From an uncultured Candidatus Saccharibacteria bacterium (GTDB lineage: Bacteria > Patescibacteriota > Minisyncoccia > Phycocordibacterales > UBA918): a stretch of DNA of 64,000 bases. Both the position numbers and the translations under genes were made by a program. Below, one piece after another: positions 18,628 to 22,158 of this stretch. Location: positions 16,086 through 80,085 of the forward strand of contig CAYXYJ010000005.1 of NCBI GenBank assembly GCA_964469295.1, written 5' to 3'. The notes under the pieces are model-generated. The model ran no database searches. It worked only from the letters and a program-made list of their open reading frames with translations, and was not told the DNA's origin. Numbering within the stretch: the first letter of the stretch is position 1; each line of letters begins with the position of its first letter.

Positions 18628-21600
18628 CTACTGCTGTATTGCAATGACAAATTGATACTCCCCAGCCGTCACCGTTTGCCCAGTAATATCATTACTCCAT
18701 TGCACCTCCATCGCGTTAACGGTTTTTAAGAGTAAGGGGTGATACACCGTATCAAGCAACACTGCACGGCCCTTATTGTCAGTACTCACTATGATTGTCA
18801 CTGTGTCACGTGGAGTAAGATTGGCTTGTTTGCGCATATCCTGCACCGTTCGTATCACTTCTCGAACCGCTCCTTCAGCCAACAGTTCGGGTGTCAATGT
18901 TGTATCGATACTGACCACATCACCAGCCATATACGTTTTTGCATTCAGCTCATCCAATACTACCGCCACCAAATCATCAGGAATGACCGGACCAGTGACG
19001 CGAGCAATCGGTTGACGGACTTTAATACCCGATTTTGTTCGTGCCTCGAGGGCCGCTGTCACGATAGTACGAACCTGAGACATGTCAGCGAGGAGCGCGG
19101 TATTTATTTCGTTTTTCATCGGCCAGGCGGATAAATGAACACTCTCGCTTTCATCACTGTTACGGACGGCACGATATAAATATTCAGCATAAAATGGCAT
19201 TACTGGCGCCATGACTTTGGCTAATTCGCGTAATACAAACCGCAACGTGCCAATAGTGTTTGTCTTATCAGTGTTATCATCACTTTTTAGACGTTCTCGA
19301 CTGCGACGCAAATACCACACAGAAATATCATCAATAAAATCAGCAATAGGCCGAGTGGCTTTATCTAGCTCGTATTGTTCGTACCCGATGGTCACTTCAC
19401 TCACGAGTTGATTGAGACGAGCAACAATCCAGCGGTCAAGCACATTTGGTGACGTCGCATTCGCCGCCGTGCCGTCAGCAAACATTTCGTACATGGCCAA
19501 CACGTTGTGTAATCGACCGATATTTTTACGTTGTAACTCCTGGACTTCTTTATCGACAAAATTCACATCTTCTCCCCGGACCACCGGCGAAGAAAGGAGG
19601 TAAAATCGTACTGAATCAGCGCCCATTTGATTGACTAGATCTTCCGGAGCTGAATAATTTTGCAGTTTCTTAGACAACTTTTTACCATCTTCAGCCATGA
19701 TAAGCCCATTCACGATCACATTTTTATACGGCGATGTACCAAATAACGCTGTCCCCAGTACAATGAGGGAGTAAAACCAGCCACGGGTTTGATCAAGTCC
19801 CTCAGCAATAAAATTGGCTGGAAATCGATGTGTAAACGCTTCTTCATTACATGAGAATGGATAATGGTGCTGGGCATACGGCATCGAACCACTTTCAAAC
19901 CAACAATCAAAGACATCTTTGATTCGTTCCAGTTTTGTCCCATCGGTATCAAATAATTCGATGTCGTCGATATACGGTCGATGGTAGTCGAGTTGATACA
20001 AATCATTGTGAGGTAATGGAGTAAACGACAATGATTTCGTTTCGGCGTTTTTTAAATAGCCTTGTTCTTTCAAAGTAATCATCGCTTCATAATCGAGGCC
20101 ACGCGCGACGGTTTCCAGTGCAAATAACGAACTACCGTGACCAATCACTAATGTATGTTCGTTGGTGATGGTGGCATCGTATTCATACAACCAACTACCA
20201 ACTCGCTTAATAAGATCATATCGACTTTCCCCGCCAGCAAATTGTCGAGTGAATTTTTCTGCTTCAGTAGCAAACTGGGTGTTGAATTCAGCCCAGGTTT
20301 TGCCTTCATAATCATCACCGACACGAAATTCAGCCAACCGTGCATCCGCTATCACCGCACTGGCTGGCAATCCTAATGTAGCAGCAATAATTTCAGCCGT
20401 TTCGCGAGCTCGTTGTAATCCGGAATGAACAATTCTTGTAACGGTTGATACCGTAGCAGCAACGGCAGCCGCTTGCGCTCGACCATTATCAGTCAAAGGG
20501 TTGTTATTTTTTCCCAGCGCATCAATGACGCCACTAACATTACTATTCGCCTCAGCGTGACGCACTATAGTATATGAGTTATTTCTTTTTGGAAGAAAAG
20601 AAATAATATCTGCCAAAGAACCCATTACATGGACGGCCCCCGTCTGATGGTTTTTCCAAATTGGTAAGGGCGCTCCCCAATACCGTTGTCGACTAATCGC
20701 CCAATCGCGTGCACCCTCGAGCCACTTGCCAAAGCGGTTTGTGCCCACATGGTCTGGTACCCAGTGCACTTGATTGTTGGCGGCGACCAGTTCGTCTTTG
20801 ATCTTTGGCACGTTTACGAACCACGATGTAGTCGCATAGTTAAGTAACGGAGTATCACACCGCCAACAGTGCGGGTAGCTATGCGTGATGTTTTCTTTTT
20901 TGAAAATTTTATCTGCAACTTGAAGCGACTTCAGGATTTCGATATCAGTGTCTTTGTGATCAATGCCAACAGCATCGTCATCCTTTGGCTTTACCAAGGC
21001 ACAATTAAAACCGGTCACCCACTCTTTAAAGCGACCGCTGTCGTCCACATGATGAACAATCGGAATATTGTTTGCCTTAGCTAGCTGCATATCATCTTCC
21101 CCGTACGCTGGCGCGATGTGGACTGCACCCGTTCCTTCTTCACCAATTTCCACATAATCAGCATGCCAAATTTTCCAGGCATTTGATTGGTCAAAATTTT
21201 GTCCAATCAAAAATGGAAATGGTGGTTGATACGATTTCCCTACTAGAACCTCGCCCTTCATGGTTTCGATGATTTCATACGAAACAGCACCGAGCTGTGC
21301 GAGTCGCCCTTTCGCGATTATGAAAAATTCATCATTTTTCATTTCTTCACTTTTAATTTTTACCGTCACATACTCGAAATCACGATTGACTGCCGCCGCC
21401 AAGTTGCCTGGCAGTGTCCAGGGAGTAGTCGTCCATACAAGGAGTGAAGTAGCAGTCACTTGCCCGGCGTCATCAAGCAGTGGAAGCTTCACTGTCACGG
21501 CAATATCTTTGATATCTTTGTAGCCTTGATTCACTTCAAAGTTACTGAGAGTGGTCCCACAGCGTGGACATAGCTGCATCGCTTTGTAGCCTTCAAACGC

Positions 21601-22158
21601 TAGATTTTTTTTGTACAATGATTTAAAAGCCCACCAAACACTTTCAGTGTAGGTGCTATCCATCGTCTTGTAGTCGTTCTCCATGTCGGCGAAGCGACCC
21701 ATCCGCGGAATAATTCGCTTCCATTCGTCAGCGTATTCCATGACTGTCGCCCGCGCCGCTTCATTAAAATTTTTCACCCCAAATGTCTCAATATCTCGTT
21801 TGGTGGCCAGTCCAAGTTTCTTTTCAATCAGATTTTCAAGCGGTAAGCCATGGCAATCCCAACCCCATTTTCGCACCACGCGATACCCGCGCATAGTCCA
21901 AAATCGTGGCACCGCGTCTTTAATCGCACTCGCGAGAATATGACCATAGTGCGGTAACCCCGTAGCAAACGGCGGTCCATCATAAAATACATAGGTTCCT
22001 TTTGGCTCCGCGCCAGCCGGCGTTGCAATAGTTTTATTAAAAATGTCGTGTTCTTGCCAAAAAGTTTGCATCGCCTCTTCTCGCAGCGCTACATCACTTT
22101 TAGCAACGACTTCCTCAACCATTACCGTGTCGTTTTCACGACCATGTTGTTTTGACAT
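18628..22158 (-). CDS. ileS: Isoleucyl-tRNA synthetase (type 2) carrying an inserted histidine-phosphatase (PGAM-like) domain
   Basis: PPFATGLPHYGHIL (HIGH), the CP1 editing region, WAISRQRYWGAPLPIW, LDYHRPYID, DVFDCWFESGSMPYAQ, and KLSKK (KMSKS-like). A roughly 180-aa segment containing RHAE...RAQAAA...SGLQRARETAEII...GHGSS lies between IISFLPK and LDYHRPYID. 1176 aa. Confidence 0.9.
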   Translation of the reverse strand: MSKQHGRENDTVMVEEVVAKSDVALREEAMQTFWQEHDIFNKTIATPAGAEPKGTYVFYDGPPFATGLPHYGHILASAIKDAVPRFWTMRGYRVVRKWGWDCHGLPLENLIEKKLGLATKRDIETFGVKNFNEAARATVMEYADEWKRIIPRMGRFADMENDYKTMDSTYTESVWWAFKSLYKKNLAFEGYKAMQLCPRCGTTLSNFEVNQGYKDIKDIAVTVKLPLLDDAGQVTATSLLVWTTTPWTLPGNLAAAVNRDFEYVTVKIKSEEMKNDEFFIIAKGRLAQLGAVSYEIIETMKGEVLVGKSYQPPFPFLIGQNFDQSNAWKIWHADYVEIGEEGTGAVHIAPAYGEDDMQLAKANNIPIVHHVDDSGRFKEWVTGFNCALVKPKDDDAVGIDHKDTDIEILKSLQVADKIFKKENITHSYPHCWRCDTPLLNYATTSWFVNVPKIKDELVAANNQVHWVPDHVGTNRFGKWLEGARDWAISRQRYWGAPLPIWKNHQTGAVHVMGSLADIISFLPKRNNSYTIVRHAEANSNVSGVIDALGKNNNPLTDNGRAQAAAVAATVSTVTRIVHSGLQRARETAEIIAATLGLPASAVIADARLAEFRVGDDYEGKTWAEFNTQFATEAEKFTRQFAGGESRYDLIKRVGSWLYEYDATITNEHTLVIGHGSSLFALETVARGLDYEAMITLKEQGYLKNAETKSLSFTPLPHNDLYQLDYHRPYIDDIELFDTDGTKLERIKDVFDCWFESGSMPYAQHHYPFSCNEEAFTHRFPANFIAEGLDQTRGWFYSLIVLGTALFGTSPYKNVIVNGLIMAEDGKKLSKKLQNYSAPEDLVNQMGADSVRFYLLSSPVVRGEDVNFVDKEVQELQRKNIGRLHNVLAMYEMFADGTAANATSPNVLDRWIVARLNQLVSEVTIGYEQYELDKATRPIADFIDDISVWYLRRSRERLKSDDNTDKTNTIGTLRFVLRELAKVMAPVMPFYAEYLYRAVRNSDESESVHLSAWPMKNEINTALLADMSQVRTIVTAALEARTKSGIKVRQPIARVTGPVIPDDLVAVVLDELNAKTYMAGDVVSIDTTLTPELLAEGAVREVIRTVQDMRKQANLTPRDTVTIIVSTDNKGRAVLLDTVYHPLLLKTVNAMEVQWSNDITGQTVTAGEYQFVIAIQQ

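What the first reader, a model, noticed from the sequence alone, without database searches (positions are those of the whole stretch)
20040..20585. Histidine-phosphatase (PGAM-like) domain inserted into the catalytic core of isoleucyl-tRNA synthetase
In IleS, about 40-60 residues normally separate ISRQRYWG.P.P.W from the conserved HRPYID block. Here about 245 residues lie between them. The extra roughly 180 aa carry a RHAE (RHG-like) phosphohistidine motif, RAQAAA, SGLQRARETAEII, and a distal GHGSS. That matches the histidine-phosphatase / phosphoglycerate-mutase superfamily. All canonical IleS motifs are intact (HIGH, CP1, KLSKK), so this is an in-frame domain insertion, not a pseudogene. I do not know of an aminoacyl-tRNA synthetase with an embedded phosphatase domain. 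It could couple aminoacylation or editing to a phosphotransfer or hydrolysis reaction, for example on a nucleotide or on tRNA. It could also be a regulatory module.
Basis: partly seen in the sequence, partly recalled or inferred. Interest (0 to 1): 0.7.

Follow-up and report, generated by a model that had tools for sequence, protein, structure and literature searches.

The report
Phosphatase domain nested inside isoleucyl-tRNA synthetase
An essential protein-synthesis enzyme (isoleucyl-tRNA synthetase) of a group of ultra-small Patescibacteria carries a complete, apparently active phosphatase domain inside its catalytic core; this arrangement is conserved across many species, we found no paper describing it, and its purpose is unknown.

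Summary

The catalytic residues R533, H534, N540, R583, E610 and H674 are invariant in all 120 full-length homologues and in every fragment that covers them. All 120 best IleRS homologues (62-100% identity, Patescibacteria/Paceibacteria/Kaiserbacteria) carry the domain. So do seven syntenic GTDB species genomes. 91 of the 150 best 50%-identity clusters for the insert are IleRS-embedded.

Variants exist with two tandem copies and with copies at other IleRS loops. One ValRS has four copies, seen only once. In every complete copy the four phosphate-binding residues and the acid/base Glu are kept.

The insert is not an intein, a pseudogene or an assembly artefact, and it fails the cut-offs for dPGM, CobC, PspA and SixA. 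Nine literature searches found no description. The most likely reading is a bifunctional enzyme whose phosphatase acts on a small phosphomonoester. Whether that activity is coupled to aminoacylation is unresolved.

The parts
18628..22158 (-). ileS: type-2 (eukaryote-like) isoleucyl-tRNA synthetase, 1176 aa, with a nested phosphatase domain
   Evidence: ORF. TIGR00392 846.8 bits against a cut-off of 621.4. Pfam tRNA-synt_1, Anticodon_1 and DUF5915. Best PDB matches for the full AF2 model are P. megaterium IleRS2 8c8u/8c9d and yeast IleRS.
21940..21951 (-). HIGH signature (HYGH, aa 70-73) of the synthetic site
20959..21561 (-). CP1 editing domain (about aa 200-400). Includes WTTTPWTLP (TTPWT at aa 244-248) and GTGAVHIAPAYGEDD, read from the translation.
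   Evidence: 73% mean identity to homologues.
20674..20712 (-). CP2-CP3 linker ARDWAISRQRYWG (aa 483-495). In yeast IleRS this segment lines the tRNA CCA / reveromycin pocket.
   Evidence: PMC7955072.
20593..20673 (-). N-terminal remnant of CP3 (aa 496-522: beta-hairpin plus short helix) leading into the insert
   Evidence: Secondary structure of the model, E500-502, E509-511, H515-519. CP3 definition from PMC7191050.
19999..20592 (-). Inserted segment (aa ~523-720, about 195 aa net): histidine phosphatase domain plus conserved linkers (N527; F712, P716, H717, N718)
   Evidence: Comparison with the insert-less CP3 of P0371. Conserved columns.
20071..20568 (-). Pfam His_Phos_1 (PF00300) envelope, aa 531-696
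20557..20562 (-). R533-H534 of the RH(A/G) motif. H534 is the predicted phospho-accepting nucleophile.
   Evidence: 120/120 full-length and 17/17 covering fragments.
20410..20412 (-). R583, second phosphate-binding arginine (S.L.RA..TA motif)
   Evidence: 120/120 full-length and 19/19 fragments.
20329..20331 (-). E610, predicted general acid/base (L.E...G..EGK motif)
   Evidence: 120/120 full-length and 18/18 fragments.
20137..20139 (-). H674, second active-site histidine (GHG)
   Evidence: 120/120 full-length and 18/18 fragments.
19924..19998 (-). C-terminal remnant of CP3 (aa 721-745, LDYHRPYIDDIELFDTDGTKLERI) returning to the second Rossmann half (VFDCWFESGSMPYAQ)
19666..19680 (-). KMSKS signature (KLSKK, aa 827-831)
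19006..19437 (-). Anticodon-binding helical domain (aa 908-1051)
   Evidence: Pfam Anticodon_1, E 5.8e-32.
18634..18918 (-). IleRS2-type C-terminal domain (DUF5915, aa 1081-1175)
   Evidence: Pfam, E 3.5e-13.

Best explanation
The gene encodes one polypeptide with two catalytic units.

The first unit is a normal type-2 IleRS. It has the HIGH and KMSKS synthetic site, the CP1 editing site, and the anticodon and C-terminal tRNA-binding domains.

The second unit is a complete branch-1 histidine phosphatase domain nested in the loop of the CP3 subdomain. In more distant relatives this loop is still the tip of a four-cysteine zinc knuckle.

The phosphatase should work as the family does. R533, R583, H674 and N540 hold a terminal phosphate. 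H534 attacks it to form a phospho-histidine intermediate. E610 protonates the leaving group and then activates water.

The domain keeps the roughly 35-residue cap between E610 and E644, and it superposes best on metabolite phosphatases (iPSP1, PhoE, GpgP, CobC). Its substrate is therefore most likely a small phosphomonoester of the nucleotide, sugar or acid type, and not a protein or an RNA end.

Shown: the domain's identity, fold, insertion site, clade-wide conservation, frozen active site and intact IleRS motifs.

Inferred: that both activities are real, and that the substrate is a small molecule.

Open: whether the phosphatase is chemically coupled to aminoacylation or editing, or is only tethered to and co-expressed with IleRS. 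I lean slightly to simple tethering of an independent phosphatase.
For: - Pfam His_Phos_1 E 3.8e-28.
- Insert-only AF2 model: pLDDT 95.9, pTM 0.92.
- R533, H534, N540, R583, E610 and H674 are invariant in 120/120 full-length homologues and in all fragments covering them. The insert as a whole is only 53% identical, against 73-83% for the Rossmann/CP core.
- All 120 best homologues have PF00300.
- Seven GTDB species genomes hold an intact 1186-1276-codon ORF with the insert, in conserved synteny.
- 91 of the 150 best 50%-cluster representatives are IleRS-embedded.
- Multi-copy variants keep the four phosphate-binding residues and the acid/base Glu in every complete copy; N540 is Ala in one copy of P0244. 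Copies within one protein are only 29-42% identical. This fits catalysis with diversified specificity better than an allosteric role.
- TIGR00392 846.8 bits and intact motifs. The full model matches IleRS2 structures.
- The site is CP3.
Against: - No biochemical data exist for either activity.
- The substrate class is inferred only from fold neighbours and the presence of the cap.
- This phosphatase subfamily appears nested almost only in IleRS: at three different IleRS sites, plus once in a ValRS. That argues for a specific functional link to class Ia synthetases, which a pure tethering model does not explain.
- The linkers are conserved (N527, F712, P716, H717, N718) and modelled with high confidence. 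This suggests a fixed geometry and not a loose tether.
Confidence: 0.6

Rival explanations
1. The phosphatase is chemically coupled to the synthetase. It would act in cis on a phosphorylated species generated or bound at the IleRS active site. Candidates are AMP, NDP or PPi from the ATP-consuming activation and editing cycles, or a blocked tRNA acceptor end (3'-phosphate, or a 3'-pyrophosphate added by a toxin). It would thereby pull the reaction forward or repair the substrate.
For: - The insert follows directly after the CP2-3 linker that lines the tRNA CCA pocket.
- The linkers are conserved and modelled with high confidence.
- The domain recurs at three different IleRS loops and once in a ValRS, the sister editing enzyme.
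- No non-synthetase host protein appears among the 150 best clusters.
- There is precedent for RHG phosphatase domains fused to nucleotide or nucleic-acid enzymes: MutT1 Nudix+RHG and the RNase H/acid phosphatase family NF005567.
Against: - The other insertion sites (after WFESGSMPYAS, and at the junction before the anticodon-binding domain) cannot all give the same geometry relative to A76.
- The cap-bearing fold favours small substrates over an RNA end.
- Up to four copies in a single protein (seen only in the ValRS) are hard to reconcile with one channelled substrate.
- MetRS, ArgRS and a class II synthetase in the same window have no such domain, so a general by-product such as AMP or PPi would not be handled for them.
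Confidence: 0.25
2. The domain is a regulatory sensor or switch. Binding or turnover of a phosphorylated metabolite in the domain would change CP3 and linker conformation and so tune IleRS activity. Alternatively, the IleRS state (uncharged tRNAIle, Ile starvation) would gate the phosphatase as a signalling output.
For: - CP3 is connected to the active site on both sides, through the ISRQRYWG linker and the WFESG strand.
- The linkers are conserved.
Against: - Full conservation of the catalytic acid/base E610 and of all phosphate ligands is what catalysis requires, more than binding would.
- Tandem arrays of 2-4 intact copies, and copies at other loops, do not fit a single allosteric hinge.
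- No evidence of any kind bears on signalling.
Confidence: 0.1
3. The insert is a catalytically dead structural embellishment, an intein-like selfish element, or an artefact (a chimeric assembly or a decaying gene).
For: - The insert evolves faster than the core: 53% against 73-83% identity.
- CP3 is known to vary structurally among IleRSs.
Against: - All catalytic residues are invariant in more than 135 sequences.
- The ORF is intact in the window and in seven other genomes with conserved synteny.
- There is no intein signature. The residue after the conserved PHN varies (D, R, S, G, K, E) and no conserved Cys or Ser sits at the N-terminal junction.
- Composition matches the flanks.
Confidence: 0.05

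Closest known systems
Type-2 (eukaryote-like, mupirocin-resistant type) IleRS, e.g. Priestia megaterium IleRS2 (PDB 8c8u, 8c9d), S. cerevisiae and C. albicans IleRS (7d5c, 8wnd, 6ldk)
   Same: The whole synthetase architecture: Rossmann fold with HIGH and KMSKS, CP core, CP1 editing domain, CP2, CP3, anticodon-binding domain and the DUF5915-type C-terminal domain. Foldseek E 1e-77, TM (normalised by target length) 0.74-0.83. TIGR00392 above its cut-off.
   Different: In those enzymes CP3 is a module of about 60 residues (Ca 473-534, Sc 459-526). Here it is split by a nested enzyme domain of about 195 residues. None of the solved IleRS structures that best matched the model has such a domain in CP3: their chains are 813-1061 residues against 1176 here (CP3 of the yeast, Candida, Thermus and S. 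aureus enzymes as described).
Free-standing branch-1 histidine phosphatases acting on metabolites: H. thermophilus phosphoserine phosphatase iPSP1 (4ij5), G. stearothermophilus PhoE (1h2e), mycobacterial GpgP (6s2q), CobC alpha-ribazole phosphatase (6e4b)
   Different: Only 19-30% identity. All function-specific NCBIfam models score far below their cut-offs. Those enzymes are independent proteins and are not nested in another enzyme.
Terminal fusions of RHG histidine phosphatase domains to nucleotide or nucleic-acid enzymes: mycobacterial MutT1 (Nudix + RHG domain) and bifunctional RNase H/acid phosphatase (NF005567, Rv2228c type)
   Different: Those are end-to-end fusions. Here the domain is nested in a loop of the catalytic core of an aminoacyl-tRNA synthetase.
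IleRS carrying an extra enzyme domain: NCBIfam NF040702 'isoleucine--tRNA ligase, N-acetyltransferase domain-containing'
   Same: It is another curated case of an IleRS with an additional catalytic domain. This shows that IleRS does acquire accessory enzymes.
   Different: The extra domain is of a different family (GNAT, not a histidine phosphatase). The window protein scores 308 bits against that model's cut-off of 1999, so it is not a member.

Membership tests
Isoleucyl-tRNA synthetase (TIGR00392), type 2 | Whole-protein score above the curated equivalog cut-off | tested here: met
   846.8 bits against a cut-off of 621.4. valS 422.5 is below its cut-off of 612.1.
Isoleucyl-tRNA synthetase (TIGR00392), type 2 | Class I signature motifs HIGH and KMSKS | tested here: met
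   HYGH aa 70-73 and KLSKK aa 827-831. The family consensus is KMSKS.
Isoleucyl-tRNA synthetase (TIGR00392), type 2 | CP1 editing domain with the threonine-rich and GTG..H.AP..G..D motifs | tested here: met
   WTTTPWTLP (TTPWT at aa 244-248) and GTGAVHIAPAYGEDD are present in the translation. 73% identity across homologues.
Isoleucyl-tRNA synthetase (TIGR00392), type 2 | Type-2 fold, including the C-terminal tRNA-binding domain | tested here: met
   Best PDB hits are IleRS2 8c9d/8c8u (E 1e-77) and eukaryotic IleRS. Type-1 IleRS is weaker, at 1e-51. DUF5915 is present.
Isoleucyl-tRNA synthetase (TIGR00392), type 2 | Aminoacylation of tRNAIle and editing of Val | not testable with these tools
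   Needs biochemistry.
Histidine phosphatase superfamily, branch 1 (Pfam PF00300) | Score above the Pfam gathering threshold | tested here: met
   98.9 bits in the whole protein and 103.8 bits for the insert alone, against 21.7.
Histidine phosphatase superfamily, branch 1 (Pfam PF00300) | RHG motif with the nucleophilic His, plus the Arg / Arg / His phosphate pocket and the acid/base Glu | tested here: met
   R533, H534 (RHA here; RHG in 38/120 and RHA in 82/120), R583, H674, E610 and N540 are all invariant.
Histidine phosphatase superfamily, branch 1 (Pfam PF00300) | alpha/beta PGAM-like fold | tested here: met
Histidine phosphatase superfamily, branch 1 (Pfam PF00300) | Phosphatase activity through a phospho-histidine intermediate | not testable with these tools
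   Needs an enzyme assay and an H534A control.
Cofactor-dependent phosphoglycerate mutase (dPGM) | Score above the curated cut-off of the dPGM equivalog models | tested here: not met
   NF038349 60-63 bits against 225. NF002339 26-31 against 316. NF002901 (GpmB) 45-50 against 261. The L.E...G..EGK motif is, from general knowledge of the family, the phosphatase-type variant.
CobC alpha-ribazole-5'-phosphate phosphatase (TIGR03162) | Score above the curated cut-off | tested here: not met
   77.1-81.7 bits against 162.9. This is the best named hit but lies well below the cut-off.
Phosphoserine phosphatase PspA/iPSP1 (NF045917) | Score above the curated cut-off | tested here: not met
   37.5-42.1 bits against 350, although iPSP1 is the top structural neighbour.
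Phosphohistidine phosphatase SixA (TIGR00249) | Score above the cut-off; minimal cap-less fold | tested here: not met
Intein / protein-splicing element | Cys or Ser at the N-terminal junction, and a C-terminal His-Asn followed by Cys, Ser or Thr | tested here: not met
   A conserved PHN is present, but the next residue varies (D, R, S, G, K, E). No conserved nucleophile sits at the N-terminal junction (alignment). The insert is a metabolic enzyme fold.

The most novel reading that the evidence does not exclude
The nested phosphatase is a second hydrolytic accessory site of class Ia synthetases, alongside CP1. It would be chemically coupled to the synthetase and would act either on nucleotide products of the costly activation and editing cycles, or on phosphate-blocked tRNA acceptor ends (for example CCA ends phosphorylated or pyrophosphorylated by toxins). 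IleRS, and occasionally ValRS, of these minimal-genome bacteria would then carry a built-in repair or product-clearing activity unknown in any other aminoacyl-tRNA synthetase.
Probability: 0.2. Interest if true: 0.85.

Novelty: new variant of a known kind. Interest (0 to 1): 0.65.

Why it matters
Aminoacyl-tRNA synthetases are among the best-studied enzymes. The extra domains described so far are mostly terminal appendages or the CP1 editing domain.

A second, unrelated catalytic domain nested in the catalytic core, with a frozen active site, would be a new architectural class for these enzymes. It is conserved across a large clade of Patescibacteria, and it recurs at other loops and in multiple copies.

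It gives a concrete, testable entry into the poorly understood physiology of ultra-small symbiotic bacteria. It may also reveal a link between tRNA charging and phosphate or nucleotide metabolism.

It matters for annotation too. These proteins are currently labelled only 'class I tRNA ligase family protein', and fragments are labelled 'histidine phosphatase family protein' or 'PhoE'.

Tried and rejected
- **Intein or selfish element:** rejected. There are no splicing junction residues.
- **Pseudogene or assembly chimera:** rejected. The ORF is intact here and in seven syntenic genomes.
- **dPGM, CobC, PspA or SixA membership:** all below their curated cut-offs.
- **Genomic context of the closest free-standing homologues** (P0388, P0392): uninformative neighbours. 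P0245 turned out to be a frameshifted ileS fragment, not a free gene.
- **Another His_Phos paralogue in the window:** none found.
- **His_Phos in the other synthetases of the window** (MetRS, ArgRS, a class II enzyme): none.
- **Leader RNA or T-box upstream of ileS:** none at Rfam gathering thresholds. The promoter/terminator scan was not above shuffled expectation.
- **Confirming the ValRS variant P0244 on a contig:** failed. The three metagenome ValRS loci found lack the insert.
- **AFDB50 fold search:** library unavailable.
- **Source contig of the identical NCBI protein P0121:** not on record.
- **Short-query homologue searches** listed only proteins of at most 512 aa, which I take to be a property of the tool; the full-length query was needed to see the clade.
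- **Literature:** nine searches found no paper that describes this fusion.
- **Domain geometry:** not measured, because model coordinates are not exposed by the tools.
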